This document shows, in pieces, positions 29,462 through 41,571 of a stretch of DNA of 64,000 nt (position 1 is the first letter of the stretch; the number at the start of each line of letters is the position of its first letter). The translations under genes and the position numbers were made by a program. The notes under the pieces were generated by a model. The model was not told the DNA's origin. It ran no database searches and saw only the letters and a program-made list of their open reading frames with translations. This stretch comes from a phage, in the sequence record PX880100.1; one strand, given 5' to 3'.

Positions 29462-30163
29462 ATGAAAGTAAAACCATTTGGTATGCTAGATATTGAATCT
29501 CTGGGAACTCCAGGAGATTGTGGTACTACTCATATCGCAATGCCTTCTTTCGCTTTTGTGGCTATGCATGGAATTGATAAAGACCCTGATCTAATATTTG
29601 TTACTTTGGATGTACAAGATCAGCTTAATTCTGGTGCCAAAGTTACAGCATCTACTCTAGCATTCTGGATGGATCAAGCTAAAAATAGCCCGTCTGCTAT
29701 CCACATTATGGAAGCTATGAAGGAACGTAATCCAAAACTGATTGCCTTCCAAAATGGTAAACATCATTGCACTAATAAACTCGGCTCTAACTATGCTGCC
29801 TACTCTATGGCTAAAAATATTATGGAGTTGGCTTTAGGCGAAAATGCTTTGTATTATGGCAACGGTCCAGAGTTTGATATGACTATCTACTCTGCAAACA
29901 CGTTCCATGCTGGAACCAATGAAGAGGTAGTTCCGTGGAAATTCTGGAATTTGGGTAATGTTCGATCTCTTCGTAACCTCTGGATGCAAGCTGGATACAG
30001 TTATAAAGCTCTAGAGACCGAAGGTATTAGCTGGGCAATAGCTAAAATGGAGAAGATGGACACCATTCGTTATGGGATCTATCCGGTTAAGCACGACCCA
30101 GCATTTGATGCCTTAGTTGAAAGCTATTGTGTTGCAGCTATGATCGAAAAAATGAAAATTTGA
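29462..30163 (+). CDS. putative DEDDh-type 3'-5' exonuclease
   Basis: 233 aa; N-terminal FGMLDIESLG (exo motif I-like D-x-E) and C-terminal YPVKHDPAFDALVE (H-x4-D motif III-like); tentative. Confidence 0.4.
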   Translation: MKVKPFGMLDIESLGTPGDCGTTHIAMPSFAFVAMHGIDKDPDLIFVTLDVQDQLNSGAKVTASTLAFWMDQAKNSPSAIHIMEAMKERNPKLIAFQNGKHHCTNKLGSNYAAYSMAKNIMELALGENALYYGNGPEFDMTIYSANTFHAGTNEEVVPWKFWNLGNVRSLRNLWMQAGYSYKALETEGISWAIAKMEKMDTIRYGIYPVKHDPAFDALVESYCVAAMIEKMKI

Positions 30164-30164
30164 T

Positions 30165-30193
30165 TTGCTTCCGGCCCCAAAATTCTGTATAAT
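30165..30193 (+). promoter_or_regulatory. PN25-type early promoter
   Basis: TTGCTT, 17-bp spacer, TATAAT, then ATATTCATAAATTTGAGAAAAC; approximate. Confidence 0.6.
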
Positions 30194-30233
30194 ATATTCA
30201 TAAATTTGAGAAAACAACAAAAGGAAAACAAAT

Positions 30234-30416
30234 ATGCCAGTATCTAAAAATGTTCGTAAAAATGGTAAGAAAGCTACTCGTAATCTGGGTATCCGTCGTA
30301 TGGCTGAACGTCAATCAGGTGTCCAGAAAATCTTTGATCTGCTAAATCGTGCTAATCCTAAAATTGATAACAGTAAAGATACTGTTCTGCGTACCTTACT
30401 GGCAATGGGTCTGTAA
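30234..30416 (+). CDS. hypothetical protein (60 aa)
   Basis: Track ORF directly downstream of promoter. Confidence 0.45.
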   Translation: MPVSKNVRKNGKKATRNLGIRRMAERQSGVQKIFDLLNRANPKIDNSKDTVLRTLLAMGL

Positions 30417-30468
30417 TAGACCAACTTTAAACAAATTCAAATCTTAAACTTCATATAAGGAAGAAACA

Positions 30469-31107
30469 ATGACCACTCGTATTTCTAAAACTCGTGCTCT
30501 GGCAACCATCAAATCTCTGGAAGCTAAAATCCGTAAAGCTACTGAACAACAGCTTCTGATCGCTGTTGGTGAAGGTAAGGATAAAAACCAGGTTGTAGTT
30601 GGCGCTGCAATCGAAGTAGCTGATCTGTCTACTCGTATTAAGACTGATTTCCAGTCTCTGCTGGATATGATGTCCCAGCGCGATCGTATCAAAGCTGCTC
30701 TGATTAAAAGCAATGCGGAAACAATCGTTGAGATTGGCTCTCGTAAGATGACTGTTGCGGAAGCAATTGAAGCTAAGCGTTCTATGGAACTTAAAGCTCA
30801 ACTGCTGGCTAACATGCGTAAGCAGTTCCATGCCGCTACAGTTAAGTTTAATGCGCAGAAAGCACAGTTTGATGCTAAATATGAGCGTTTGCAGGATAGC
30901 ATGGCTACCCGCGATAAGAAAACTTCCGAAGATGAAGTTAAAATGCAGCTCAACCTGCTGGAACTCAAGAATACTCCATTCTTGATTGATCCGCTGGAAC
31001 TGGAGAAGCTGATTAAGCAGCATGACGAGGAATACCAGGACTTTGCAACAAATGTTGACTTTGTTCTGTCCGAGTCTAACGCCTCTACCTTCATTGAAGT
31101 AGAGTAA
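30469..31107 (+). CDS. hypothetical coiled-coil protein (212 aa)
   Basis: Track ORF; Ala/Glu/Lys-rich helical sequence. Confidence 0.5.
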   Translation: MTTRISKTRALATIKSLEAKIRKATEQQLLIAVGEGKDKNQVVVGAAIEVADLSTRIKTDFQSLLDMMSQRDRIKAALIKSNAETIVEIGSRKMTVAEAIEAKRSMELKAQLLANMRKQFHAATVKFNAQKAQFDAKYERLQDSMATRDKKTSEDEVKMQLNLLELKNTPFLIDPLELEKLIKQHDEEYQDFATNVDFVLSESNASTFIEVE

Positions 31108-31490
31108 TAATTTAAAAGCTAGTAAATCGGTAGACGAAAGCCCAAGCATCTTACCTCGCAGCAGCGGTTGAAATACGAGGTTAAATAAGACCGCTGACCA
31201 TACTATAAAGTATAATCTATTGGAGATTATGTTTATTACACCAGCCTTTTAAGCTGACACGTAAGAACAAAGCGTCGTTGATATTACCGACACAACTTCA
31301 AAGATCAACATTTAAGTATGAAAGCTGAAAAGTTTAAAGAACTCAAACTTCTAAACTTCTAAAGCTAAAAGATGCAAAGTATTCGTTGATGATTCAAACC
31401 CTAGATCAAAGGTACATGGCTCATAAGATATGGCCTGTGGCGCCTCTAGGCTGTTTATCGGTTTACTAGTTTCACAATTTAAAAATGTAT

Positions 31491-31519
31491 TTGCTAATTT
31501 ATTAAGTTATCTGTATAAT
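31491..31519 (+). promoter_or_regulatory. early promoter
   Basis: TTGCTA, 17-bp spacer, TATAAT; approximate. Confidence 0.55.
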
Positions 31520-31549
31520 ATATTTTTAAATTGATGAAACGAGGCTATT

Positions 31550-31867
31550 ATGACTTTTCATATTTTGATTGATGATGTGCGTAATCTTCACGGAATGGAC
31601 ATTATCATTCGAACCCCAGAAGCCGCTGTAGAGTTTCTGAATAAAACTGATACCACCGGCCATTTCGTTTATATGGATAATGACTTGGCTGTAGATGGTA
31701 TGGAAGGTTATCAAATTCTTCGTTTACTCTTAGAATTTGGGCAGAGACCAAAGAAAGTGGTACTAGTAACCTCGAACCCAGTAGCTAAGCAAAATATGCG
31801 TAATGATTTGCTTGACTTAGGGTATAAAGAAAATCCCAATCGTGTTGAATATGATTGGCAGGAGTAA
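31550..31867 (+). CDS. hypothetical protein (105 aa)
   Basis: Track ORF downstream of promoter. Confidence 0.5.
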   Translation: MTFHILIDDVRNLHGMDIIIRTPEAAVEFLNKTDTTGHFVYMDNDLAVDGMEGYQILRLLLEFGQRPKKVVLVTSNPVAKQNMRNDLLDLGYKENPNRVEYDWQE

Positions 31868-31872
31868 AAAGA

Positions 31873-32322
31873 ATGAAGGCAGCTTTGCTTTTAGTAGCTG
31901 CCCTTACCTTCAGCTTTAGTAGTCAGGCATCGCACGATGCAAAAGAAATAGATTGCATTGCTAAAAATATCTATTTCGAAAGTCGTGGTGAGGGCATAAA
32001 GGGAATGACGGCGATTGCACATGTTACTAAAAACCGTGTAAACTCCGGTAAATTCCCAGATTCCTACTGTAAAGTAGTATATCAGTCTAACCAGTTCTCT
32101 TGGGTATCTAAGAGACCAAAAGTTGATAAAACTGATGAGGCTTGGCAAACCGCTAAGAATTTAGCTAGAGTGATATACTACGTTGATTTACCACAAGATC
32201 CTACATATGGAGCACTTTACTTCCATAGTGGTAAAGATAAACCTTACTGGACAAAGAAGTTTAAGAAAACAACTAAGATTAAGGGACATACGTTTTATAA
32301 ACCTGTTGTCACTAAAACTTAA
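31873..32322 (+). CDS. secreted SleB/CwlJ-like cell-wall hydrolase
   Basis: ATG at 31873 with GGAG RBS; signal peptide MKAALLLVAALTFSFSSQA; conserved segment IAKNIYFESRGEGIKGMTAIAHVTKNRVNSGKFPDSYCKVVYQSNQFSW. Confidence 0.6.
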   Translation: MKAALLLVAALTFSFSSQASHDAKEIDCIAKNIYFESRGEGIKGMTAIAHVTKNRVNSGKFPDSYCKVVYQSNQFSWVSKRPKVDKTDEAWQTAKNLARVIYYVDLPQDPTYGALYFHSGKDKPYWTKKFKKTTKIKGHTFYKPVVTKT

Positions 32323-32330
32323 AAATTTAC

Positions 32331-32359
32331 TTGCTTAAATACTTAAATTTCCGTATAAT
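32331..32359 (+). promoter_or_regulatory. early promoter
   Basis: TTGCTT, 17-bp spacer, TATAAT; approximate. Confidence 0.55.
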
Positions 32360-32390
32360 ACTTCCATAAATTAATGAGAGGAAGCGAAAT

Positions 32391-32561
32391 ATGAAATCAG
32401 TTGTAATTATTGGTGTTAACACTCGCGGTATTCGTACTACGAAAACTGTTAAAACTTCCAACGTTGCTGAGATCACTACGAACCCTAAAAAGTTTGATTT
32501 CGCCAAAGTCTCAGCAGTTATGACAGAACAATCTTTTAACCAAGCGTTAGGAATGAAATAA
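32391..32561 (+). CDS. hypothetical small protein (56 aa, below track cutoff)
   Basis: ATG at 32391 with GAGAGGAAG RBS after the promoter; stop overlaps ATG of next gene (TAATG). Confidence 0.5.
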   Translation: MKSVVIIGVNTRGIRTTKTVKTSNVAEITTNPKKFDFAKVSAVMTEQSFNQALGMK

Positions 32562-33004
32562 TGGAAGAGAATATTTTAGATGTTTTGCGTAGAGCTTTGC
32601 AGGATTCTAAGTTTAATGGTTCTGATAAAGAAGTCGCTAAAAGCTATCAGACCATAATCGGGGATCTTCAGCGTATTGATAAAGATTTCATCACTTCTGA
32701 ACAATTTGTGTCTTATCTCAAAGCTCAACTAAAAAGCATTAACCAGATGAAAGCTAAACTTCATGGTCAAGATCTTGATAGTTATAGCTTGCAGTCCGCT
32801 CAGTATGAATACATTCTAAATAAGTGGTTGCAGGAGTATCTGCCTCCTCAGTTATCTGATACTGAGATTCGTAAATACTTTGCAGAATTAGTTAAGCTAA
32901 ACCCTGGAATTACAAAAGGTATGCTGATGAAAGCGATTAAGGAAGAATTTCCTGGGCGTTATGATGGTGGTACTGCTGCTCAGATTGCTGGCGAATTTAA
33001 TTAA
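32561..33004 (+). CDS. hypothetical protein (147 aa)
   Basis: Track ORF; translationally coupled to the upstream small ORF. Confidence 0.5.
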   Translation: MEENILDVLRRALQDSKFNGSDKEVAKSYQTIIGDLQRIDKDFITSEQFVSYLKAQLKSINQMKAKLHGQDLDSYSLQSAQYEYILNKWLQEYLPPQLSDTEIRKYFAELVKLNPGITKGMLMKAIKEEFPGRYDGGTAAQIAGEFN

Positions 33005-33012
33005 AAATTTAT

Positions 33013-33041
33013 TTGCTAAATGCTTATAAATTCTGTATAAT
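33013..33041 (+). promoter_or_regulatory. PN25-type early promoter feeding an ORF-free RNA region
   Basis: TTGCTA, 17-bp spacer, TATAAT, ATATTCATAAATTAGAGAAC; no ORF for the next ~800 bp; approximate. Confidence 0.6.
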
Positions 33042-33264
33042 ATATTCATAAATTAGAGAACAGCGAGCCGATTACGCTGAGTGCAGAATCCCAACCGGAG
33101 CGCATTGAATAGAGTCGGTGGGTTAGTTGTAAAACTAGTACACAGGGGGCGGCAATCCCGGTTAGTGGCTAGAACGTGTAAAATGAGGCGTCTGAAACCT
33201 CTCCCCTAAACTCTTCTCTAATTTATAAATAGTGGGGTGTGGAAATCACTTATGTAGTAACACT

Positions 33265-33336
33265 GCCGTCCTAGTATAATTGGTATTATCAAGCCGTAAC
33301 TGGTGGAAGATGTAGGTTCGAATCCTACGGTCGGTA
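33265..33336 (+). ncRNA. tRNA-like element (T-arm and acceptor stem present, anticodon arm not foldable by eye)
   Basis: GTAGG-TTCGAAT-CCTAC T-arm and GCCGTCC/GGTCGGT acceptor pairing (one mismatch); no convincing anticodon stem; possible pseudo-tRNA. Confidence 0.3.
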
Positions 33337-33838
33337 AGAACTGGATAACTGATGCTTTTAACGTAAAAGCTTCCGAGGTTAGTTGCGCACTGCCTAAACC
33401 ACGCGGTAGTTGGTTCCAGACTAACCAACCAGTCTGCTGAATAGTTTTATTACGATTTAACTATGTCCAGGCTAAAGAAGAACTTTAGAAGGTATTCTAG
33501 GATAGTGAAGTTCTTTCTCCACATCGGAGTAGTTTTTCAAGCTATCCACAAAGTGGGAAATGCTGACATGAGAGATGTCACTAATGGTGCACAATAGCAC
33601 AGGTAATTCGCGATAATTCCTGTTGAGTAGCAGCAAAAGGCGGGAAGTCATGACCCCAAGCCTAACCGAGTCCTCAATATACCGCAGGACATAACCACTA
33701 AGTCACCCTGACTTAAACTGGAAAATAATAGACGTTACTGTATTTTGTCTTGAAATACTTAATGAGTGAGACTTATGACTCTCCCGGTATCGTCTGTATT
33801 TTTAAGAGTTTTTACGAGAGTTCTTAAAAATACTTAAA

Positions 33839-33913
33839 CGGGGTGTAGTCTAAGGGAGAGGCAGGAGTCTTCTAAATTCCTTTATGCAGGTTCGAATCCT
33901 GTCACCTCGGCCA
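33839..33913 (+). tRNA. tRNA-Arg (anticodon UCU)
   Basis: Acceptor CGGGGTG/CACCTCG, D-arm GTCT..AGGC, anticodon arm GGAGT-CTTCTAA-ATTCC, T-arm GCAGG-TTCGAAT-CCTGT, encoded CCA. Confidence 0.7.
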
Positions 33914-33947
33914 ATTTTATTAACTGTAACTAAAACAAAGGAAATAT

Positions 33948-34895
33948 ATGTTTAATACTAAAAATATGAAAGAACTGACTTCTGAGCAGAAAGTAATTCG
34001 TACTATTAAACGTTGGGGGATTGGTGCTGTAGTTGGTTTAGCAGGTTTAGTTCTAGCTCTTAACTCCTATACCGTTGTTCAAGACGGTACTGTTAAGACC
34101 CAGACTTTCTTGGGTAAAGTTGATCCTAATCCAGTATTACCTGGTTTCCATGTTGTAAATCCTTTTGCTTCTTTTGATACTTTTAGTACTAAAGATATTG
34201 CTCTAAAATTAGATAAACTTCAGGTTCCTAGTCAGGATAAGTTTAAATCCACTGTTGACCTGACTGTTATGTTGCAGTTTGATGGTTCTAAAGCACCGAT
34301 TAACCGTATTAATGCAGGTAATCAGGATCAAGCGTTAGACAAATATGTAACTGAAAAATTACTGTCTACTATTCGTGAGTTTGGTAAGTCTGTACCTAAA
34401 GCACAAGATTTATTTGATGCTAAAATTCAGGCTCAATTGCAAACTGCAATTCAACAGGAAGTTGAAGAGTATGCACGCCCATATGGTTACACAGTTAAGC
34501 AGGTGTTCCTTCAGGATATTACTTTGCCACCGGTAATCATGGAACAGGTACAGAATACCAAAGTTCGTGAAGAACAGGTTAATGCTGCTAAAGCTGAATT
34601 AGCTCGTGTTGAACAGGAAGCACAGCAAAAAGTTAAACAAGCAGAAGCAGATCGTGAAGCTCGCAACAACCAAGCTATTGCTAATGAACGTGACGCAGAT
34701 GCTAAACTGTACGCAGCTAAGAAAGAAGCTGAAGCTAACGCCGCATTGCAACGTACCATTACTCCTGAGATGATTCGCTGGAAGCAACTGGAAGTTGAAA
34801 TGATCCGTGCTCAGAAGTATCAAGGTGGTGTACCACAGACGGTAGTTGGTACTGGTTATGATGGCCAAATGATCATGGATATGCGTAATAAATAA
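33948..34895 (+). CDS. SPFH/band-7 (prohibitin/HflC-like) membrane protein
   Basis: 315 aa; N-terminal TM helix (WGIGAVVGLAGLVLALN), central SPFH-like region, C-terminal coiled coil rich in A/E/Q/K/R. Confidence 0.6.
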   Translation: MFNTKNMKELTSEQKVIRTIKRWGIGAVVGLAGLVLALNSYTVVQDGTVKTQTFLGKVDPNPVLPGFHVVNPFASFDTFSTKDIALKLDKLQVPSQDKFKSTVDLTVMLQFDGSKAPINRINAGNQDQALDKYVTEKLLSTIREFGKSVPKAQDLFDAKIQAQLQTAIQQEVEEYARPYGYTVKQVFLQDITLPPVIMEQVQNTKVREEQVNAAKAELARVEQEAQQKVKQAEADREARNNQAIANERDADAKLYAAKKEAEANAALQRTITPEMIRWKQLEVEMIRAQKYQGGVPQTVVGTGYDGQMIMDMRNK

Positions 34896-34919
34896 TACCC
34901 GCATGTAACATCTGAAGTA

Positions 34920-34954
34920 AGCCCTGCGTTTCCTGGAGAGCGCAGGGCTTTTCT
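34920..34954 (+). terminator. rho-independent terminator
   Basis: AGCCCTGCG...CGCAGGGCT hairpin followed by TTTCT; approximate. Confidence 0.6.
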
Positions 34955-34991
34955 ATATAATGTAATTATAAAACTAACTAGGAGATTAAAC

Positions 34992-35510
34992 ATGGGTGTT
35001 GATGAATTAACACAGCATCTTCTATCTAGAGGATTTGATGCAGATAAATATCATTGCTGGTTAAGTCCGGAAGGATGGCTAACAGTCCCGTTGTATGATT
35101 TCTCTGGGATGTTGAGGGGCTATCAAACTTATAATCCTTCTGCTCCAAAAGGTCATGGTAAGTATCCCTTTGAAGCTAAATATTTTACCTATTCTACTAC
35201 CCAGTGTGTATGGGGATTAGAAACTCTCAATGGAGATGAAAAAGTAGTATTGATCGCTGAATCTGTATTTAAGGCAGTTGCGTTACATAACGCTGGTTAT
35301 CCAGCCCTAGCAATGTTGGGTTCTTCTCCAGGAAAAGCGTTATTAAAGCAACTGAAATTATTACCTTTTAAATTGGTAGCTGTCGGGGATAACGATCCTG
35401 CGGGTGAAAAATTTGCTAGAAAATTAAACGGCTTTGTTTCTCCTGTAGATGTGGATGAGATGTCTACCGAAAACTTGAAAAATTTTCTTGCTATGAAGCT
35501 AAATTTCTAA
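34992..35510 (+). CDS. hypothetical protein (172 aa)
   Basis: Track ORF with GGAGA RBS. Confidence 0.5.
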   Translation: MGVDELTQHLLSRGFDADKYHCWLSPEGWLTVPLYDFSGMLRGYQTYNPSAPKGHGKYPFEAKYFTYSTTQCVWGLETLNGDEKVVLIAESVFKAVALHNAGYPALAMLGSSPGKALLKQLKLLPFKLVAVGDNDPAGEKFARKLNGFVSPVDVDEMSTENLKNFLAMKLNF

Positions 35511-35531
35511 TATAATATATCTTATAAATTC

Positions 35532-35620
35532 GGAAGAATAGCATAACGGTATTGCAGCAGATTGCTAATCTGTCGGTTTGAAATATAGCCTTGTGGGTTC
35601 GATTCCCACTTCTTCCGCCA
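35532..35620 (+). tRNA. tRNA-Ser (anticodon GCU), class II
   Basis: Acceptor GGAAGAA/TTCTTCC, 3-bp D-stem, anticodon arm GCAGA-TTGCTAA-TCTGT, long variable arm, T-arm GTGGG-TTCGATT-CCCAC, encoded CCA. Confidence 0.7.
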
Positions 35621-35626
35621 AATTCT

Positions 35627-35704
35627 GGTTCTCAAGCTCATATGGTATGAGCACCCAGCTCATAACTGGAAGGTACGTAGGTTCGAATCCTCGGGGAGCC
35701 ACCA
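35627..35704 (+). tRNA. tRNA with CAU anticodon (Met or Ile2 type)
   Basis: Acceptor GGTTCTC/GGGAGCC with G-U pairs, D-arm GCTC..GAGC, anticodon loop CTCATAA, encoded CCA; T-stem has two mismatches, so fold is uncertain. Confidence 0.5.
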
Positions 35705-35922
35705 ACTTAATTAGGGGATTACAAGTGGAATTATACATAGTTTATGTTGTGTTTATTCAAGATAGAGAATACCCTGATGAATATAAAAAAGGATATAGGT
35801 TAGCCAGAGCTACCTCTGAAGTCCAAGCTATGGATAAAGTGGCAGATTATATGATTACGGTAGAAAACGTACACTATATCGACTACCTTGAGGCCTCAAA
35901 AGTAATTGACTAAGGAGACTAT

Positions 35923-36108
35923 ATGTCCAAGTTTCAAGAACTCAAGCAAGAGCTAGAAGAATGTGCCTGCCCTGAGTGTAGGGGAATTGGTGAAAGTTCT
36001 GATGCAGAAGCAGGAGATACTTTTTGCAATATCTGGGTTTGCCCAAATTGCAATGGTACAGGTATTAATCCTAACTGTGGTATTTCTCTAGATATTGAAA
36101 GAGGGTAA
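35923..36108 (+). CDS. small zinc-ribbon-like protein (61 aa)
   Basis: Track ORF; CxxC...CxxC cysteine pairs (CACPECRG, CPNCNG); AAGGAG RBS. Confidence 0.5.
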   Translation: MSKFQELKQELEECACPECRGIGESSDAEAGDTFCNIWVCPNCNGTGINPNCGISLDIERG

Positions 36109-36209
36109 TATCTGTGAAACTAAAAGATTATTATATTGGTTGGTTTGTGGGACTAGTAGTAGGATTTTCACTAGGCTATAATATGTATCAACTAATAAAC
36201 TGATTACAC

Positions 36210-36286
36210 GGGGGTGTAATCGAATTGGCATAGGTACTGGACTTAAAATTCAGGTTTTGTGGGTTCGAATCCCACCACCCCTACCA
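36210..36286 (+). tRNA. tRNA with UAA anticodon (Leu-type anticodon, short variable arm)
   Basis: Acceptor GGGGGTG/CACCCCT, anticodon arm CTGGA-CTTAAAA-TTCAG, T-arm GTGGG-TTCGAAT-CCCAC, encoded CCA; D-arm not cleanly resolved. Confidence 0.5.
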
Positions 36287-36301
36287 AATTAAGGAAATAA
36301 G

Positions 36302-36469
36302 ATGTATAGACCTCCACCTCCGCCAACACGTCGTTCTAGAGAAGTTATCCTCATGGAATTGACTAAAAACTTCAAGGCAACTCTTGAAGATAGAGATTTA
36401 GGCACGGATGAAGACATTGATTTTATTTGTAGACTATTAAAGATGAAACTGGAGAAACAACATGGCTAA
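36302..36469 (+). CDS. hypothetical small protein (55 aa, below track cutoff)
   Basis: ATG at 36302 with AAGGAAATAAG RBS right after the tRNA; proline-rich N-terminus; overlaps the next ORF start. Confidence 0.5.
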   Translation: MYRPPPPPTRRSREVILMELTKNFKATLEDRDLGTDEDIDFICRLLKMKLEKQHG

Positions 36470-36668
36470 TCCTGAAATTACCGCACAACGTTTCATGCTT
36501 AAAGGCATGATTGCTGAAGCAGGTATGACTCAAGAGGTTGCAGACTTTCATAAGCAAATTCTTGATATTATAACTCTAGCTAAAGAGACTGGAGAAAAAG
36601 AGCACGCAGCAGCAATTATGGCTATATCTCTTATTAGTCTAGACTTGGCTGAAGAATCTGGAGTTTAG
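36462..36668 (+). CDS. hypothetical protein (68 aa)
   Basis: Track ORF. Confidence 0.5.
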   Translation: MANPEITAQRFMLKGMIAEAGMTQEVADFHKQILDIITLAKETGEKEHAAAIMAISLISLDLAEESGV

Positions 36669-36698
36669 CTCCTCCAAATAGAATTTTTAAAAATGTAC

Positions 36699-36728
36699 TT
36701 GCCTTTTGCTTTAAATTTCTGATATAAT
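36699..36728 (+). promoter_or_regulatory. early promoter
   Basis: TTGCCT, 18-bp spacer, TATAAT, then AGTTATATAAATTGATGAAGGAG; approximate. Confidence 0.55.
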
Positions 36729-36758
36729 AGTTATATAAATTGATGAAGGAGTTAACTA

Positions 36759-37034
36759 ATGCAAAATCGTGTTATAGCAACTGGTATTGAAAGTGCAATC
36801 TGTAAATCCTGGGAAGGCTGGGAAGGTGAGATTGAATGGCTTTATTTCTATGATGTAGAACTTCTGCCGGAAGTTAAAGCTAAATGTGTTGAAGCTGGAA
36901 TGGCTCCAGATGCAAAAGCTGATATTGATATTTCAATGTCTGAACTTAAAGGCCGTGTAATTACTGTTAGTGATGAGGGTGAAGAAGTTTTCGAACTTCC
37001 ATTCTCCTTAACTGTCACTCCTAAGTTCGACTAA
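36759..37034 (+). CDS. hypothetical protein (91 aa)
   Basis: Track ORF downstream of promoter. Confidence 0.5.
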   Translation: MQNRVIATGIESAICKSWEGWEGEIEWLYFYDVELLPEVKAKCVEAGMAPDAKADIDISMSELKGRVITVSDEGEEVFELPFSLTVTPKFD

Positions 37035-37070
37035 CTAATACAGCACTGAGCAAGTTCTTTAAAATTTGAC

Positions 37071-37099
37071 TTGCTCAGTGCCTTAAAACTTGGTATAAT
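37071..37099 (+). promoter_or_regulatory. early promoter feeding a tRNA block
   Basis: TTGCTC, 17-bp spacer, TATAAT; followed by a 14-bp inverted-repeat leader hairpin and tRNAs; approximate. Confidence 0.5.
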
Positions 37100-37161
37100 A
37101 GTTATCTAATTTGGAAACATATTTAAAAGTGTTTAAACTAGTATTTGAATACTTTTAAATA

Positions 37162-37267
37162 TGTTGGATTAGTATCGTAGAGGTAGCGAAGCAGACTGTA
37201 AATCTGCCGACTCGGAAGGGTCTCGGGTGGTTCGACTCCATCATCCATCATCCATCATCCAACACCA
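37162..37267 (+). tRNA. tRNA-Tyr-like (anticodon GUA), class II, atypically long; boundaries uncertain
   Basis: Perfect anticodon arm GCAGA-CTGTAAA-TCTGC, D-stem TCG/CGA, T-arm GGTGG-TTCGACT-CCATC; 3' region carries ATCCATC-ATCCATC-ATCCAAC then ACCA; GTTGGAT pairs with the last copy. Confidence 0.5.
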
Positions 37268-37274
37268 AATTTAA

Positions 37275-37351
37275 GTCCTGTTAGACAAACTGGTAAAGTC
37301 ACTACCCTTTCAAGGTAGGATTTGCGGGTTCGATCCCCGCACAGGACGCCA
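37275..37351 (+). tRNA. tRNA-Glu (anticodon UUC)
   Basis: Acceptor GTCCTGT/ACAGGAC, anticodon arm CTACC-CTTTCAA-GGTAG, T-arm GCGGG-TTCGATC-CCCGC, encoded CCA. Confidence 0.8.
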
Positions 37352-37360
37352 ATTTCTGCA

Positions 37361-37436
37361 TTCCTAGAGTGTTACTGGACAGCATGTCGGTCTCCAAAAT
37401 CGTACGGTCTAGGTTCGAGTCCTAGTAGGTTTGCCA
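37361..37436 (+). tRNA. tRNA-Trp-like (anticodon CCA), acceptor pairing unresolved
   Basis: Anticodon arm TCGGT-CTCCAAA-ATCGT and T-arm CTAGG-TTCGAGT-CCTAG with encoded CCA; spacing to neighbouring tRNAs fits, but 5' acceptor strand could not be paired by eye. Confidence 0.4.
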
Positions 37437-37442
37437 AAATTT

Positions 37443-37517
37443 GCACCTTTAGCTGAGATGGATTAGCGCTTGCCTGAAGAGCTTGAGAGGTTCGTTCGAT
37501 ACGAACAGGGTGCACCA
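37443..37517 (+). tRNA. tRNA-Phe-like (anticodon GAA)
   Basis: Acceptor GCACCTT/AGGGTGC, D-arm GCTG..TAGC, T-arm GTTCG-TTCGATA-CGAAC, encoded CCA; anticodon loop CTGAAGA but stem has two U-U mismatches. Confidence 0.55.
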
Positions 37518-37519
37518 AA

Positions 37520-37807
37520 TTGAGGGGGCTGCTGATGCATCCTGAAAACTTCTTTATTTACTGCGCTGATAAGTCGCTGAAACGTAGAATTAACAAAGTC
37601 TATCATTATCGTGCTAGTCAACAGCCTTATGTATATGCTTTTGACGGTGATCACATTCCATTAGAACAATTATCTTGTGATTACATGATATTGAAGAACT
37701 TTGACGAGACAAAGATCTCAAGCGTTCATAATCGACAGAATCCCTTAACGTGGAAATATAAGAAGAAAAAGAAAGGCATCAAATTCTTAAAAAATGTAGT
37801 TGCTTAG
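37520..37807 (+). CDS. hypothetical protein (95 aa)
   Basis: Track ORF starting 3 nt after the tRNA; TTG start. Confidence 0.45.
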   Translation: MRGLLMHPENFFIYCADKSLKRRINKVYHYRASQQPYVYAFDGDHIPLEQLSCDYMILKNFDETKISSVHNRQNPLTWKYKKKKKGIKFLKNVVA

Positions 37808-37828
37808 TTTCCAAAAGTTCTGTATAAT
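37800..37828 (+). promoter_or_regulatory. PN25-type early promoter
   Basis: TTGCTT, 17-bp spacer, TATAAT, then AATTACATAAATTGAACTGGAG; approximate. Confidence 0.55.
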
Positions 37829-37857
37829 AATTACATAAATTGAACTGGAGAAGCAAC

Positions 37858-38082
37858 ATGACAGAACAAGAATTGAATGAACGTAAGCTGGTAATGCTCC
37901 GCTTACTAAACATTTTCTCTGGTATGGATGGGGGTATTGACTTTGTTCATCTACGTTCTTTTGTAGAAGAAGCAGAAGGTGAATCTATCACTAAAATCCT
38001 TAAACATATGGGTTTACTATTAGATGCTGCTGGTGTAGCAACGGAATATAACCTCGAAGATCTACCGGAGCGTATTAAATGA
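37858..38082 (+). CDS. hypothetical protein (75 aa)
   Basis: ATG at 37858 with GGAG RBS; track lists an extended frame from 37840. Confidence 0.5.
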   Translation: MTEQELNERKLVMLRLLNIFSGMDGGIDFVHLRSFVEEAEGESITKILKHMGLLLDAAGVATEYNLEDLPERIK

Positions 38083-38267
38083 AGAAGCCAAAAGCTAAAT
38101 TAGTTAAGTTCGACTGTTGTGACACAGAAATCTTATTCACTAAGTTTGGTGAATTTAAGATGTGTGAATGTGGAACATGTGGTTATGATCATGGTGATGG
38201 ATATTATTGCAGGACTCTTGGACCAGCAAATCTAATCCACTTTTCATGGCCGGAAGATAAAGAATAA
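38079..38267 (+). CDS. small zinc-ribbon-like protein (62 aa)
   Basis: Track ORF; cysteine clusters FDCCDTE and CECGTCGYDHGDGYYC; 4-nt overlap with upstream gene. Confidence 0.5.
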   Translation: MKKPKAKLVKFDCCDTEILFTKFGEFKMCECGTCGYDHGDGYYCRTLGPANLIHFSWPEDKE

Positions 38268-38269
38268 TT

Positions 38270-38344
38270 GCATCCTTGTCCGAGTGGCTTAGGTGACGGT
38301 CTGCAAAATCGTCTAGGTTGGTTCAATTCCAGCAGGGTGCTCCA
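38270..38344 (+). tRNA. tRNA-Cys (anticodon GCA)
   Basis: Acceptor GCATCCT/AGGGTGC, anticodon arm ACGGT-CTGCAAA-ATCGT, T-arm GTTGG-TTCAATT-CCAGC, encoded CCA. Confidence 0.7.
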
Positions 38345-38350
38345 AATTCA

Positions 38351-38433
38351 GGGTCGTTAGCCAAGCGGTTTGGCGGTGGACTGTTAATCCATGTCGAAAG
38401 ACAACGTAGGTTCGAATCCTACACGGCCCGCCA
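38351..38433 (+). tRNA. tRNA-Asn (anticodon GUU) with an enlarged (~13-nt) variable region
   Basis: Acceptor GGGTCGT/ACGGCCC, D-arm GCCA..TGGC, anticodon arm GTGGA-CTGTTAA-TCCAT, T-arm GTAGG-TTCGAAT-CCTAC, encoded CCA. Confidence 0.65.
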
Positions 38434-38535
38434 AATTCTGTGTAGAGTTAAGTAAACCGGTAGCCAACCAGCTATCATTGCTGACATCGAATTCAGCCAC
38501 AGATACCATTTTCATTAATAACTGAGGAAACAAGC

Positions 38536-38721
38536 ATGTCCAAGAATGTAATTGCGCAGCTAGAAGTTCATCGTGATAGCACTATCAACAATATTGAAGT
38601 TGAGAAGAAATACATCGAAGAACTTAAACATGATATACTAGTAAGTCTCAACCGTCTTAATGTACGAAAAGAGTTTCTTAAAGAACTTAATGCAGCTATT
38701 GAAAAACTCAAAGCTGAGTAA
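38536..38721 (+). CDS. hypothetical protein (61 aa)
   Basis: Track ORF with GAGGAAAC RBS. Confidence 0.5.
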   Translation: MSKNVIAQLEVHRDSTINNIEVEKKYIEELKHDILVSLNRLNVRKEFLKELNAAIEKLKAE

Positions 38722-38730
38722 ATGAATTAT

Positions 38731-38807
38731 GCGACCGGGGCTGGCTTGGTAATGGTACTCCCCTGTCACGGGAGGGAATGTGGGTTCAAATCCCATCGGT
38801 CGCGCCA
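38731..38807 (+). tRNA. tRNA-Asp (anticodon GUC)
   Basis: Acceptor GCGACCG/CGGTCGC, anticodon arm CTCCC-CTGTCAC-GGGAG, T-arm GTGGG-TTCAAAT-CCCAT, encoded CCA. Confidence 0.8.
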
Positions 38808-38824
38808 AATAAGGTAGGTTAGCT

Positions 38825-38983
38825 ATGGAACGTAGAGAGTTTACTCCAGAAGAGATAGAGCAGATAAAAGAATCTGCTACGAAAAATGCTAGAATATCTC
38901 TGTCACTAGAAGGTATCATTATTAGTGATGTAAACTTTGAAAAAATCAAAGCCATAGCTGATGAACTGGAAAAAGTAATTTAA
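38825..38983 (+). CDS. hypothetical small protein (52 aa, below track cutoff)
   Basis: ATG at 38825 with AAGGTAGG RBS between two tRNAs; acidic helical peptide. Confidence 0.45.
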   Translation: MERREFTPEEIEQIKESATKNARISLSLEGIIISDVNFEKIKAIADELEKVI

Positions 38984-38984
38984 T

Positions 38985-39060
38985 ACATCCATAGCTCAAT
39001 GGTTAGAGCTACCGCCTCTTAAGCGGAGGGTTCTAGGTTCAAGTCCTAGTGGGTGTACCA
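38985..39060 (+). tRNA. tRNA-Lys (anticodon CUU)
   Basis: Acceptor ACATCCA/TGGGTGT, D-arm GCTC..GAGC, anticodon arm CCGC-CTCTTAA-GCGG, T-arm CTAGG-TTCAAGT-CCTAG, encoded CCA. Confidence 0.65.
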
Positions 39061-39086
39061 AACTAAACTAGCACGAGAAATATACT

Positions 39087-39434
39087 ATGCGTAATGCTAA
39101 AGAAGAGTTGTTACTTGCCTTAAAAAATACTAATTCTGAAGTTAAGTGTATTAAAATAGAATTCGGGTATTATGGGGACAAAAAAGTTTGGGTATTACCT
39201 CTGGGGTATACAGAAGAAGATATTGGGGATTTTCTTAATAACCTAGACTTTGAGTATGATTCTGGTTATGGTGGACAACTACTTTATGGTAATGTATGGT
39301 TTGCCGATGGAACCTGGCTAGAACGTGGGGAATATGATGGAGCTGAGTGGTGGGAATACAAGGCTACTCCAGCAATTCCAGAGGAATGCCGAACAATTAA
39401 TGGTGAAGTAGATAATACTTTAAGGTTAAACTAA
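39087..39434 (+). CDS. hypothetical protein (115 aa)
   Basis: Track ORF. Confidence 0.5.
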   Translation: MRNAKEELLLALKNTNSEVKCIKIEFGYYGDKKVWVLPLGYTEEDIGDFLNNLDFEYDSGYGGQLLYGNVWFADGTWLERGEYDGAEWWEYKATPAIPEECRTINGEVDNTLRLN

Positions 39435-39438
39435 TAAA

Positions 39439-39538
39439 ATTTCAGTGCAGAACACGGAGCTAGCAATTCGGAAGTGCTGACTCATGATAAGCTGCCTATG
39501 TACTTGCAAAGCGGTCGTGTCCAAGACTCGGACTCTTG
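39439..39538 (+). ncRNA. structured ORF-free element closed by a ~10-bp long-range stem
   Basis: TTCAGTGCAG at the 5' end pairs with CTTGCACTGAA at the 3' end, enclosing internal hairpins (GTCC-AAGACTC-GGAC); no ORF. Confidence 0.35.
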
Positions 39539-39556
39539 CACTGAAAACAATCAAAC

Positions 39557-39684
39557 ATTCTAGCGTGGTTGATGGGGAAACCAGCTTGGCTAGGGCAGAA
39601 GCTCGTTCGATTCGAGTGAAAGAATGGTTCTCGTAAGTCCGCACAAGTGATAATAGGTTCGAGTCCTGTCTAGAATGACACTAT
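39557..39684 (+). ncRNA. tRNA-like element of atypical length (~128 nt)
   Basis: ATTCTAG...CTAGAAT acceptor-like pairing, D-arm-like GGTT-GATGGGGA-AACC, two T-arm-like motifs; too long for a canonical tRNA. Confidence 0.3.
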
Positions 39685-39826
39685 AAAGTTTACTTATTAT
39701 GTAGGTTCCGATAGATCGGCGGGTCTATTCTGGCATTTAAGAGAGGTCTCGCAAACTTCTTTGTCAGCCGTGGGGTTGGTAGCCTCCAGGTGGCCTACAC
39801 AATAAGTAAATTTATTAAAAATTCAT

Positions 39827-39855
39827 TTGCTATTTCTCTTAATTATCTGTATAAT
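39827..39855 (+). promoter_or_regulatory. PN25-type early promoter
   Basis: TTGCTA, 17-bp spacer, TATAAT, then ATATTTTATAAAGTGAAGAGAAGG; approximate. Confidence 0.55.
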
Positions 39856-39887
39856 ATATTTTATAAAGTGAAGAGAAGGAAAGCAAA

Positions 39888-40046
39888 ATGAAACACAAGA
39901 TAGCTCAAGTTTTTATGGCATTATGGTGTATGCCAATAGCTATAACAGCATTTAATCTAGATACTTTTACTATAGAAGAAAAATGTATCGGATTAGTTAG
40001 TGGCTTTAGTATGCTTGGCTTATCTTTGTTGTGGTTGAAGAAATAA
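39888..40046 (+). CDS. hypothetical small membrane peptide (52 aa, below track cutoff)
   Basis: ATG at 39888 with GAAGGAAAG RBS after the promoter; hydrophobic sequence; stops 4 nt before tRNA-Pro. Confidence 0.5.
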   Translation: MKHKIAQVFMALWCMPIAITAFNLDTFTIEEKCIGLVSGFSMLGLSLLWLKK

Positions 40047-40050
40047 TATT

Positions 40051-40128
40051 CTCCGTGTAGCTCAGTTTGGCCAGAGCGTTTCGTTTGGGGCGATAGGGTC
40101 GGGGGTTCAAATCCTCCCACGGAGACCA
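40051..40128 (+). tRNA. tRNA-Pro (anticodon UGG)
   Basis: Acceptor CTCCGTG/CACGGAG, D-arm GCTC..GAGC, anticodon loop TTTGGGG (stem with one U-U), T-arm GGGGG-TTCAAAT-CCTCC, encoded CCA. Confidence 0.7.
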
Positions 40129-40134
40129 AACAAT

Positions 40135-40212: not shown

Positions 40213-40232
40213 TTTTAATAGAGGATTTCGAA

Positions 40233-40400: not shown

Positions 40401-40401
40401 T

Positions 40402-40480: not shown

Positions 40481-40484
40481 ATTT

Positions 40485-40558: not shown

Positions 40559-40577
40559 ATTAACTCAAAATAAGGAA

Positions 40578-41274: not shown

Positions 41275-41279
41275 AAATA

Positions 41280-41559: not shown

Positions 41560-41571
41560 AAACAATTTATA

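What the first reader, a model, noticed from the sequence alone, without database searches (positions are those of the whole stretch)
33042..33838. ~800-bp ORF-free structured region driven by a PN25-type promoter at the head of the tRNA cluster
A strong promoter (33013..33041) is followed by ~800 bp with no ORF on either strand that is co-oriented and ribosome-site-equipped. The stretch contains many local hairpins, a tRNA-like element (33265..33336) with a good T-arm and acceptor stem but no foldable anticodon arm, and a terminator-like hairpin near 33400..33450, and it ends at tRNA-Arg (33839). This looks like one or more stable non-coding RNAs (pseudo-tRNA, tRNA-like decoy or other small RNA) rather than spacer DNA.
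Basis: seen in the sequence. Interest (0 to 1): 0.6.

Follow-up and report, generated by a model that had tools for sequence, protein, structure and literature searches.

The report
RNAX: large structured phage T5 RNA
The 800-base gene-free stretch is the T5-type phage gene "rnaX", already annotated as a stable RNA of unknown function; comparison with relatives shows it folds into a conserved multi-domain RNA in which the tRNA look-alike is only one exchangeable tip.

Summary
A T5-type early promoter (33013-33041) precedes about 790 nt with no conserved ORF, and the stretch ends at tRNA-Arg(UCU) (33839). It contains a tRNA-like element (33265-33336; Rfam tRNA 35.5 bits; not called by ARAGORN). 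The window is a Tequintavirus. The same locus is annotated in T5, BF23 and DT57C records as misc_RNA rnaX, "stable RNA with unknown functions", so the entity is already known. What I add is structure. Base-pair covariation across five groups of T5-like phages (family Demerecviridae) supports a multi-domain fold on the + strand. The 5' end sits in helix P1. A closing helix GUGG/CCAC encloses a 12-bp leader-trailer helix (H1) that carries the tRNA-like domain at its tip. A second look-alike domain displays an invariant palindromic loop, GUCAUGAC. A long 3' hairpin abuts tRNA-Arg. In Proteus and Providencia phages and in some Epseptimaviruses the tip is a plain hairpin, so tRNA mimicry is not the conserved core. 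No Rfam family other than tRNA matches. T5 st0 lacks the locus, so it is dispensable in the laboratory. Function remains unknown. The closest analogues are the phage RNAs GOLLD and ROOL, which also lie near tRNA islands.

The parts
33013..33041 (+). T5-type early promoter (-35 TTGCTA 33013-18, -10 TATAAT 33036-41). The start site is inferred at about A33048.
   Evidence: Annotated as 'promoter P16-17' in T5 and BF23. The start site is inferred by analogy with T5 PN25 (own knowledge). The records' rnaX 5' end maps to about 33056.
33048..33059 (+). P1 5' strand (AUAAAUUAGAGA). It pairs with 33215-33226 and sequesters the 5' end.
   Evidence: Inverted repeat seen in the sequence and in the folds. 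AKFV33 has AGAUG/CAUCU in place of AGAGA/UCUCU, a compensatory change. L007 and HildyBeyeler have G.U variants.
33060..33214 (+). Optional 5' domain D0, inserted in the P1 loop. It includes hairpin P2 (33061-33065 paired with 33075-33079).
   Evidence: Absent in T5, DT57C and AKFV33; present in BF23 and 325 phage records, always at this locus. The P2 stem CAGCG/CGUUG-type pairing (CAGCG/CGCUG) becomes CAGCA/UGCUG in Proteus phage PL1.
33215..33226 (+). P1 3' strand (UCUCUAAUUUAU).
33231..33246 (+). Invariant 5' box AGUGGGGUGUGGAAAU. GUGG (33232-33235) is the 5' strand of the helix that closes domain D1.
   Evidence: Invariant columns in A1. RNAalifold pairs it with CCAC at 33399-33402. In Priunavirus and Novosibvirus the pair becomes UGGG/CCCA.
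33245..33258 (+). H1 leader strand (AUCA-C-UUAU-G-UAGU).
   Evidence: 12 bp, 100% paired in 29 and in 25 distinct sequences. 5-6 pairs carry changes on both sides.
33259..33264 (+). Conserved internal-loop strand AACACU (4 of 6 positions invariant, 2 nearly so). U33264 lies at position -1 relative to the tRNA-like domain.
33265..33336 (+). tRNA-like tip domain: acceptor stem, D arm, T arm and elbow nucleotides are conserved. The anticodon arm is reduced to a 3-bp hairpin.
   Evidence: Rfam tRNA 35.5 bits. Covariation in the acceptor, D and T stems. Annotated as a pseudo-tRNA in AY587007.
33337..33353 (+). Invariant AGA (with A33336 this makes AAGA), followed by the H1 trailer strand 33340-33353 (ACUG-G-AUAA-C-UGAU).
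33354..33370 (+). Hairpin d (GCUUUU-AACGU-AAAAGC).
   Evidence: 94% paired, 2 compensatory pairs. Kept in distant genera.
33396..33402 (+). AAACCAC motif. CCAC (33399-33402) is the 3' strand of the D1 closing helix.
33409..33429 (+). Internal hairpin GUUGGUU-CCAGACU-AACCAAC.
   Evidence: Alignment (L035 GUUGAUU/AAUCAAC; DT57C G.U). Not a terminator by the scan.
33553..33698 (+). Domain D2, closed by GUGG (33553-56) paired with CCAC (33695-98). It contains hairpins 33564-33580 and 33670-33690, both of which covary.
   Evidence: The closing helix is invariant, so it is predicted only.
33638..33663 (+). Hairpin whose loop (33645-33654) carries the invariant palindrome GUCAUGAC (33647-33654).
   Evidence: The stem covaries. 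The palindrome is present in 51 of 53 distinct RNAX regions, within stems of different sequence.
33700..33722 (+). Invariant hairpin AAGUCA-CCC-UGACUU plus UAAACUGGA.
   Evidence: Duplicated in T5.
33796..33833 (+). 3'-terminal hairpin of about 17 bp, AU-rich, lying 5 nt upstream of tRNA-Arg.
   Evidence: it folds better on the + strand because of G.U pairs. The U-A pair becomes C-G in the Klebsiella-phage lineage and in L035. Conserved in Klebsiella T5-like phages.
33839..33913 (+). tRNA-Arg(UCU). Its RNase P site would define the RNAX 3' end.
   Evidence: The records end rnaX exactly at the tRNA 5' end. RNase P cleavage is inferred.

Best explanation
This is the rnaX gene of T5-like phages, a trans-acting, stable, large structured non-coding RNA.

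Shown here:
- A strong early promoter is followed by about 790 nt without any conserved ORF.
- The + strand transcript has a conserved, covarying architecture made of the following parts:
  - P1, which buries the 5' end and has an optional inserted domain D0.
  - Domain D1, closed by GUGG/CCAC. It contains a 12-bp leader-trailer helix H1 with an invariant core (C-UUAU-G / G-AUAA-C), a conserved internal loop (AACACU / AAGA) and an exchangeable tip. In this window the tip is a tRNA-like fold.
  - Domain D2, with the same AGUGGG...GAAAU / AACCAC signature and a hairpin that displays the invariant palindrome GUCAUGAC.
  - A long 3' hairpin.

Inferred:
- Transcription starts near 33048.
- RNase P cutting at the 5' end of tRNA-Arg releases the RNAX 3' end just after the terminal hairpin. 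With both ends in helices the RNA would be nuclease-resistant, which fits the label 'stable RNA'.
- RNase P may also nick at U33264/G33265, leaving the pieces held together by H1.
- The RNA most likely works as a scaffold or decoy. Its invariant H1 and loop motifs would bind a protein partner, the tRNA-shaped tip would add affinity for factors that recognise the tRNA elbow, and the palindromic loop would allow self-association.
- It is an accessory function, not an essential one.
For: Identity: the stretch is 99.7% identical to Tequintavirus genomes. The homologous stretch is annotated as rnaX, 'stable RNA with unknown functions', in NC_005859 (T5), NC_042564 (BF23) and NC_027356 (DT57C).

Structure:
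- A1: 37 pairs are 92.5% paired, against 34-42% when partners are slid. 15 pairs carry changes on both sides, a count reached in 0 of 500 shuffles.
- A3, spanning five genera: 400 of 400 cells are paired, against 29-40% when slid.
- A2, the 3' half: 98.8% paired, with 8 compensatory pairs.
- Strand: 105 G.U cells against 7 A.C, and 25 against 1.

Not coding: every ORF is disrupted in relatives.

Depth of conservation: model R1 finds the core at 54-62 bits (E about 1e-13 to 1e-15) in Providencia and Proteus phages, in the same YqeY ... tRNA-Arg context. The same ordered motifs occur in Klebsiella T5-like phages. The RNAX core is 95.5% identical to DT57C, while the adjacent YqeY protein is only 57.5% identical.

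Dispensable: T5 st0 lacks the locus.
Against: - I have no expression or end-mapping data. 'Stable RNA' is a database note whose experimental basis I could not trace (searches found no paper).
- The annotated 5' end (equivalent to about 33056) lies 15 nt past the -10 element. That does not match my inferred start at 33048.
- The MFE is not better than shuffled sequence.
- Several helices are invariant and therefore only predicted: the D2 closing helix, and the helices at 33585-33590 with 33630-33635 and at 33700-33714.
- The covariation in the D1 closing helix rests on one evolutionary event in a hand-built alignment.
- No partner protein is identified. YqeY is absent from about 80 Klebsiella phages that carry the RNA.
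- The modules are shuffled between lineages. In Proteus phages the palindromic hairpin lies 5' of the core. The modules could therefore be independent elements rather than parts of one machine.
Confidence: 0.65

Rival explanations
1. The RNA self-assembles like GOLLD and ROOL. RNAX would be a T5-family counterpart of the large ornate phage RNAs that sit beside tRNA islands and form homo-oligomeric particles. The invariant palindromic loop would be the intermolecular kissing contact, and the exchangeable tRNA-like tip would correspond to the tRNAs sometimes found in the GOLLD linker.
For: RNAX is phage-encoded, sits at a tRNA island, is 640-1300 nt long and has conserved cores with variable expansions. 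The self-complementary GUCAUGAC is in a hairpin loop in 51 of 53 loci, while the surrounding stems vary. GOLLD and ROOL share this context and use kissing loops (PMC12286853).
Against: The Rfam GOLLD and ROOL models give no hit, even at E up to 10. The six-base palindrome UCAUGA has only 2 G-C pairs. Priunavirus RNAX lacks the palindrome. Nothing here tests oligomerisation.
Confidence: 0.15
2. The stretch is a cis-acting leader only. The 790 nt would be a processed-away 5' leader of the tRNA-Arg / SPFH-protein operon. Its hairpins would guide RNase P, RNase III or RNase E processing, or protect the transcript, and there would be no trans function.
For: RNAX is always co-oriented with and upstream of tRNA-Arg(UCU). 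It is directly adjacent in Tequintavirus, Epseptimavirus and Novosibvirus, and two small CDSs away in the Klebsiella-phage group and in Priunavirus. The leader-trailer helix and the long terminal hairpin resemble processing stalks.
Against: The other 23 tRNAs of the cluster need no such leader. Motif conservation is invariant across five genera and exceeds that of the neighbouring protein genes. The downstream gene differs between lineages. GenBank annotators call it a stable RNA.
Confidence: 0.15
3. The RNA is a tRNA-mimic decoy. Its function would reside in the tRNA-like domain, which would titrate a host tRNA-targeting defence nuclease or a tRNA-binding enzyme.
For: The tRNA-like fold keeps U8, A14, G18G19, the T-loop and a 12-bp acceptor/T stack, with compensatory changes. 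T5 tRNAs are known to counter tRNA-cleaving defences (PMC10644984; PMC11464382, listed).
Against: The anticodon arm, the usual nuclease target, is missing or variable. The whole tRNA-like tip is replaced by a plain hairpin in Priunavirus, in Novosibvirus and in Epseptimavirus loci L024, L025, L030 and L037, while the rest of the RNA is kept. The acceptor end is not free: it is flanked by helix H1.
Confidence: 0.1
4. The conservation reflects a DNA-level element (replication origin, nick or packaging signal) or hidden small protein genes, not an RNA structure.
For: The region contains an AT-rich long inverted repeat and a DNA palindrome. Several annotation pipelines call small ORFs here.
Against: G.U cells outnumber A.C cells 105 to 7, which fits only a + strand RNA. 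The paired segments lie 80-170 nt apart at variable spacing. All ORFs are frameshifted or interrupted by stops in relatives.
Confidence: 0.03

Closest known systems
rnaX (RNAX) of phages T5, BF23 and DT57C, as annotated in GenBank NC_005859, NC_042564 and NC_027356
   Same: It is the same locus, with the same flanks (YqeY-like gene, promoter 'P16-17', tRNA-Arg). Identity is 91-99% over shared parts. BF23 also carries the 150-nt D0 insert.
   Different: They give no structure, no family definition and no distribution beyond these phages. The T5 copy lacks D0 and has an 87-nt insertion at a position equivalent to 33713.
GOLLD (RF01998-type) and ROOL large ornate RNAs
   Same: They are phage- or prophage-encoded, often lie next to tRNA islands, are hundreds of nucleotides long and combine conserved cores with variable regions. 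tRNAs are sometimes embedded in the GOLLD linker. Kissing loops contribute to their architecture. Their function is unknown (PMC12286853).
   Different: There is no sequence or structure match to their covariance models. Their hosts and phage families differ. Oligomerisation of RNAX is untested.
Canonical tRNA (Rfam RF00005) and the pseudo-tRNA annotation in T5 record AY587007
   Same: The acceptor stem, D arm, T arm and elbow nucleotides are present. The score is above the Rfam gathering threshold. It is annotated as a pseudo-tRNA. The most similar tRNA in the window is the one at 35627-35701, with 54 of 72 positions identical.
   Different: There is no 5-bp anticodon stem or 7-nt loop and no encoded CCA. 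Pair 5:68 is a U.U mismatch in this window. The 5' and 3' flanks are base-paired to each other (H1), so the element is an internal branch of a larger RNA.
tRNA-like modules inside other non-coding RNAs: the tmRNA tRNA-like domain, bacterial YrlA (Y RNA) and the MALAT1-mascRNA processing handle (own knowledge)
   Same: In each case a tRNA-shaped module with an intact T arm and elbow but a missing or odd anticodon arm is embedded in a larger RNA. It is recognised by tRNA enzymes such as RNase P.
   Different: ARAGORN finds no tmRNA, and there is no G3.U70 pair or tag ORF. In YrlA the tRNA-like module, as I recall, has a different strand connectivity from a canonical tRNA, whereas here the topology is the canonical 5'-to-3' one. 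No Rfam hit to these families was obtained.
Stable RNAs of unknown function in T-phage tRNA clusters: T4 species 1 and 2 (rnaC, rnaD; own knowledge) and T5/BF23 RNAI, RNAIII, RNAIV and RNA1-3
   Same: They are non-tRNA stable transcripts embedded in phage tRNA gene clusters, some described as 'tRNA-like', and all are functionally unexplained.
   Different: Those RNAs are about 70-170 nt long. RNAX is 5-10 times larger and multi-domain.

Membership tests
rnaX / RNAX of T5-like phages (GenBank annotation) | Sequence homology to the annotated rnaX of T5, BF23 and DT57C | tested here: met
   The locus is 96-99% identical to DT57C and BF23 over shared parts and 91-99% to T5.
rnaX / RNAX of T5-like phages (GenBank annotation) | Synteny: between the YqeY-like gene with its early promoter and tRNA-Arg(UCU) | tested here: met
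   YqeY lies at 32561-33004 (Pfam YqeY E = 1.7e-5, just below the family cut-off), the promoter at 33013-33041 and tRNA-Arg at 33839.
rnaX / RNAX of T5-like phages (GenBank annotation) | Accumulates as a stable RNA in infected cells | not testable with these tools
   This rests only on the database note. No paper was found.
tRNA (RF00005) | Covariance-model score at or above the gathering threshold | tested here: met
   35.5 bits against 29 for 33265-33336.
tRNA (RF00005) | Anticodon arm (5-bp stem, 7-nt loop) with a readable anticodon | tested here: not met
   The model skips 18 nt there. ARAGORN makes no call in the window and gives inconsistent calls (Ser-ACU, SeC-UCA) in relatives. Only a 3-bp hairpin covaries.
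tRNA (RF00005) | Free acceptor end after processing (unpaired flanks, CCA encoded or addable) | tested here: not met
   The flanks form the covarying 12-bp helix H1, and the 3' side reads AAGA rather than CCA.
GOLLD / ROOL large phage RNAs | Match to the Rfam covariance models | tested here: not met
   There was no hit at E up to 10 in the window region, or at E up to 1 in nine relatives' loci.
GOLLD / ROOL large phage RNAs | Phage-encoded, adjacent to a tRNA island, more than 500 nt, with a conserved core and variable regions | tested here: met
   The family description is from PMC12286853.
GOLLD / ROOL large phage RNAs | Homo-oligomeric assembly through kissing loops and A-minor contacts | not testable with these tools
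   The only lead is the invariant palindromic loop.
tmRNA | tRNA-like domain plus a tag reading frame, detectable by ARAGORN | tested here: not met
   ARAGORN reports no tmRNA in the window.
Intrinsic terminator (claimed at 33400-33450) | GC-rich stem-loop directly followed by a U-tract | tested here: not met
   The terminator scan finds no + strand site in 32500-34500.
T5 early sigma-70 promoters | TTGCT(T/A)-N17-18-TATAAT(A) consensus | tested here: met
   The site at 33013-33041 fits. There are 25 such sites in the window against 0.38 expected. The consensus is quoted in the AKFV33 record.

The most novel reading that the evidence does not exclude
RNAX is the founding member of a Demerecviridae-specific class of large 'ornate' RNAs. 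It would be functionally parallel to GOLLD and ROOL but unrelated in sequence. Under this reading the RNA self-associates through the invariant GUCAUGAC loop and uses an exchangeable tRNA-shaped (or hairpin) tip and invariant helix and loop motifs to capture a translation- or tRNA-related factor during infection. T5 would then be a genetically tractable model, with ready-made deletion mutants, for the unsolved function of giant phage RNAs.
Probability: 0.2. Interest if true: 0.75.

Novelty: already known. Interest (0 to 1): 0.45.

Why it matters
Large structured phage RNAs beside tRNA islands, such as GOLLD and ROOL, are a standing puzzle. Their structures are spectacular and their function is unknown. 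RNAX shows that a classical, easily engineered model phage family carries an RNA with the same genomic habit. It is conserved over at least five groups of T5-like phages, absent from Rfam, and already known to be deletable (T5 st0). The covariation-backed fold given here supplies concrete targets for mutagenesis, pull-downs and structure work: P1, the D1 closing helix, H1 with its invariant core, the exchangeable tip and the palindromic loop. It also corrects routine mis-annotation of this stretch as 'tRNA-OTHER/Ser/SeC' or as small hypothetical proteins in hundreds of phage genomes.

Tried and rejected
- Thermodynamic test: folding the whole 791 nt gave z-scores of about -1 on both strands, which is uninformative.
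- Rfam: only tRNA matched. The weak Hrs13, mir-3167 and snoRNA hits are far below their thresholds and were rejected as chance.
- Coding potential: all candidate ORFs are broken in relatives.
- YqeY as an obligate partner: rejected. About 80 Klebsiella T5-like phages have the RNA but no detectable YqeY homologue.
- Pairing of the 5' box with CACCCU at 33704-09: dropped. That segment is the loop of an invariant hairpin, and L033 gives no support.
- A wider family: core-pattern scans of IMG/VR and metagenomes, and a variable-gap pattern scan, returned only Demerecviridae plus chance coding hits L061, L067 and L092.
- A pseudoknot or terminator at 33409-33436: only the first stem covaries. The CAGAC/GUCUG stem is not conserved in L035 or L036.
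- Literature searches for RNAX, T5 stable RNAs or a T5 transcriptome found nothing usable.
Full report
**What the window is.** The stretch 33000-33950 is 99.7% identical to Salmonella phage VSe12 and about 99% identical to many Tequintavirus genomes. 444-569 phage records match it. It lies between a YqeY-like gene (32561-33004; Pfam YqeY E = 1.7e-5, just below the family cut-off) and tRNA-Arg(UCU) at 33839-33913. That tRNA is the first of 24 tRNAs that ARAGORN finds downstream.

**Checking the observation.**
- The promoter TTGCTA-N17-TATAAT at 33013-33041 is the best sigma-70 match in the region. It belongs to a set of 25 TTGCT-N17-19-TATAAT sites in the window, against 0.38 expected by chance. 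This is the T5 early-promoter consensus quoted in the AKFV33 record.
- No ORF longer than 60 aa exists on either strand.
- Each of the seven ORFs I tested is frameshifted or interrupted by stops in relatives. For most, this happens in close relatives whose nucleotides are otherwise 95-99% conserved.
- Rfam's tRNA model scores 33265-33336 at 35.5 bits (threshold 29) while skipping the anticodon arm. ARAGORN does not call it.
- The whole-region minimum free energy is no better than shuffled sequence on either strand (z about -1). 'Many hairpins' is therefore not in itself evidence.
- The claimed terminator-like hairpin is not detected by the terminator scan.

**It is already annotated.** The T5 RefSeq record (NC_005859) annotates the homologous 719 nt as misc_RNA rnaX, 'stable RNA with unknown functions', preceded by 'promoter P 16-17' and ending exactly at tRNA-Arg. 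The BF23 tRNA-region record (784 nt) and DT57C (636 nt) do the same. The Wang et al. T5 record (AY587007) marks a pseudo-tRNA there. Automated annotations variously call the element tRNA-OTHER, tRNA-Ser or tRNA-SeC, or place small hypothetical proteins over it. I found no paper describing RNAX. The T5 st0 deletion mutant lacks the locus: the region is missing from AY692264, and neither a pattern search nor model R1 finds the core there. RNAX is therefore dispensable for growth on laboratory hosts.

**Structure of the core.**
- I aligned 29 distinct core sequences (A1). RNAalifold, followed by a hand check, showed that the sequence just upstream of the tRNA-like element (33245-33258, AUCA-C-UUAU-G-UAGU) pairs with the sequence just downstream (33340-33353, ACUG-G-AUAA-C-UGAU).
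- Counting pairs for this helix (H1), the cloverleaf stems and hairpin d gave 92.5% paired cells, against 34-42% when the 3' partners are slid by 1-3 columns. 15 pairs carried changes on both sides, a count reached in 0 of 500 shuffles.
- H1 is 100% paired, with six compensatory pairs. Its central C-UUAU-G / G-AUAA-C block is invariant. The internal loop that joins it to the acceptor stem (AACACU / AAGA) is conserved: 8 of its 10 positions are invariant and 2 nearly so.
- The acceptor, D and T stems also covary, and the elbow nucleotides are invariant (U8, A14, G18G19 and most of the T loop). The 'anticodon arm' is a 3-bp hairpin, or in some lineages a longer variable hairpin.
- The tRNA-like element is thus an internal branch on a stalk, not a free-standing tRNA gene.

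**The tip is exchangeable, and the family is deep.**
- In Epseptimavirus loci L024, L025, L030 and L037 the tRNA-like tip is replaced by an unrelated hairpin, while the flanks are kept.
- A covariance model built from A1 (R1) finds the core at 54-62 bits (E about 1e-13 to 1e-15) in Providencia phages PSTCR5 and PR1 (Priunavirus) and in Proteus phages PM135, PL1 and Stubb (Novosibvirus). In each case it lies in the ORF-free gap downstream of their YqeY homologue and upstream of tRNA-Arg.
- In those phages the tip is a plain hairpin, but the 5' box, H1, the internal loop, GAUAAC and hairpin d are retained. H1 shows new compensatory combinations (UUAU/AUAG, UUGU/ACAA, CUCG/UGAG, CUCA/UGGG).
- An 80-column alignment built from fixed-offset segments of 25 distinct sequences from five groups gives 400 of 400 paired cells, against 29-40% when slid.
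- The same alignment supports a long-range closing helix for this domain. GUGG (33232-35) pairs with CCAC (33399-402) in T5-like phages, and this becomes UGGG/CCCA in the distant genera. L035 has a G.U variant. This is essentially one evolutionary event in a hand-built alignment, so I rate it as suggestive rather than proven.

**The 5' end.**
- The inferred first transcribed bases (33048-33059) pair with 33215-33226 to form P1. AKFV33 carries AGAUG/CAUCU in place of AGAGA/UCUCU, and other phages show G.U variants.
- In T5, DT57C and AKFV33, P1 closes a small loop. In this window, in BF23 and in 325 other records, a 150-nt domain is inserted there. Related but larger versions exist in Epseptimavirus, Priunavirus and Novosibvirus.
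- That domain includes a hairpin (33061-33079) whose stem changes from CAGCG/CGCUG to CAGCA/UGCUG in Proteus phage PL1.

**The 3' half.**
- An alignment of 17 distinct sequences (A2) gives 39 predicted pairs that are 98.8% paired, against 31-49% when slid, with eight compensatory pairs. The structure was predicted from the same alignment, so the comparison is biased in its favour.
- The best-supported helices are the hairpins at 33564-33580, 33638-33663 and 33670-33690.
- A second GUGG...CCAC pair (33553-56 with 33695-98) repeats the AGUGGG..GAAAU / AACCAC signature of the first domain, but it is invariant and therefore only predicted.
- The loop of the 33638-33663 hairpin carries the palindrome GUCAUGAC. 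It is present in 51 of 53 distinct RNAX regions, within stems whose sequences differ between lineages (GGCGGG/CCC..GCC, GACUGGG/CCUAAGUC, GUGAC..UGG/CCG..GUCAC). In Proteus phages it lies 5' rather than 3' of the core. Only Priunavirus lacks it.
- The RNA ends in a hairpin of about 17 bp (33796-33833), 5 nt before tRNA-Arg. It folds better on the + strand because of G.U pairs, and its U-A pair becomes C-G in other lineages.
- Klebsiella T5-like phages carry the same ordered motifs spread over about 1.3 kb directly after the endolysin gene, with no YqeY gene.

**Strand and level of selection.** Across the tested pairs, G.U cells outnumber A.C cells 105 to 7 in A1 and 25 to 1 in A2. This is expected only if the + strand RNA is the selected molecule. 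It argues against a DNA-level element. The RNAX core is 95.5% identical between this phage and DT57C, while the adjacent YqeY proteins are only 57.5% identical.

**How it most likely works.**
- Shown: a promoter-driven, non-coding, + strand transcript with a conserved modular fold whose ends are both buried in helices.
- Inferred, biogenesis: transcription starts near A33048, by analogy with the T5 PN25 promoter (own knowledge). The records' 5' end maps about 8 nt further downstream, a discrepancy I could not resolve. RNase P cleavage at the tRNA-Arg 5' end creates the 3' end just after the terminal hairpin, giving a nuclease-resistant RNA. The tRNA-like tip has U at -1, an unpaired 6-nt leader and a 12-bp acceptor/T stack. 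RNase P might therefore also nick there, leaving the two pieces held together by H1.
- Inferred, function: the invariant H1 core and internal loop look like a specific recognition site, the tip adds a tRNA-elbow surface in most lineages, and the palindromic loop could mediate self-association.
- The function itself is unknown. Because the tip is exchangeable, a pure 'tRNA decoy' model is unlikely.

**Comparison with known systems.** The closest known entity is the annotated rnaX itself. The closest characterised analogues are GOLLD and ROOL. These are large phage or prophage RNAs, often beside tRNA islands, with tRNAs sometimes in the GOLLD linker, and they assemble into homo-oligomeric cages through kissing loops (PMC12286853). 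RNAX is not a member of those families, because their Rfam models give no hit. The resemblance is one of context and style only. It is also not a tRNA (no anticodon arm, no free acceptor end) and not a tmRNA.

**Verdict.** The new content here is the covariation-supported architecture, the finding that the tRNA-like part is a swappable tip, the invariant palindromic loop, and the distribution across at least five Demerecviridae groups. Pattern scans of viral and metagenome collections recovered nothing outside this family. Interest is moderate. The entity is known and its function is open, but it is directly testable in a tractable phage.

Noticed in passing
window 35627-35701: Rfam tRNA scores this at 38.2 bits, directly after tRNA-Ser(GCU), but ARAGORN does not call it. 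It sits where T5 annotates tRNA-Ile2(CAU). It is the window tRNA most similar to the RNAX tRNA-like tip (54 of 72 identical). Its anticodon stem-loop CAGCUCAUAACUGG resembles AGCCGUAACUGG in the tip, which hints that the tip derives from a CAU-anticodon tRNA.
   Followed up: partly
window 41197-41275 and 41573-41667: ARAGORN calls tRNA-Ala(UGC) and tRNA-Ser(UGA) here, but neither reaches the Rfam tRNA gathering score in the 30000-46000 scan.
   Followed up: no
window 32561-33004 (YqeY-like gene): There are two very different alleles of this gene among otherwise near-identical Tequintaviruses. The window's protein is only 57.5% identical to the DT57C allele (the annotated homologue of T5.081), while the adjacent RNAX is 96-99% identical. 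This suggests mosaic replacement at the gene boundary.
   Followed up: partly
L034 717-1199; L036 649-1128; L028 1612-2121; L037 1495-2004: CDSs of about 480-510 nt are inserted into RNAX in some relatives; only the one in JLBYU43 is annotated as an HNH endonuclease. In JLBYU43 and atrejo the insert replaces or occupies the 5' domain. In 26175I and phage 1-29 it sits just before tRNA-Arg. The RNA core motifs are left intact.
   Followed up: partly
T5 locus L006, insertion at a position equivalent to window 33713/33714: T5 carries an 87-nt insertion that duplicates the invariant AGUCACCUUGAC..UAAACUGGAA hairpin motif and adds a long AU-rich hairpin between the copies.
   Followed up: no
L085 about 4030-4060; L086 about 1469; L088 about 1457: In Priunavirus, and in Novosibvirus phage PL1 (not in PM135 or Stubb by the same search), a T-arm-like hairpin (GGUUCGAUUCC) sits inside the large 5' domain of RNAX, although the H1 tip there is not tRNA-like. 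Rfam tRNA does not score it.
   Followed up: partly
window about 33048 versus about 33056: The rnaX 5' end given in the T5 and BF23 records corresponds to about window 33056, which is 15 nt past the -10 hexamer. A sigma-70 start is expected near 33048. Either the annotated end is approximate or it is a processed end.
   Followed up: no
L083 719-900 (metagenome contig OLXE01000031.1): This is a natural variant in which the D arm of the tRNA-like tip is deleted (GAUCUAGUUUAUCAAGCC) while the rest of the core is intact.
   Followed up: no
window 32391-32561: The 56-aa ORF upstream of the YqeY-like gene matches Pfam DUF7616 over its full length (E = 4.7e-33). This is a conserved small protein of unknown function (T5.082 homologue).
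   Followed up: no
window 33650-33694: The invariant GGAG-UC-AUG-ACC in the palindromic hairpin looks like a Shine-Dalgarno sequence plus a start codon at too short a spacing. The reading frame behind it is 14 codons here, 4 in T5 and 2 (AUG ACC UAA) in several Epseptimaviruses, so it is not a conserved peptide.
   Followed up: partly
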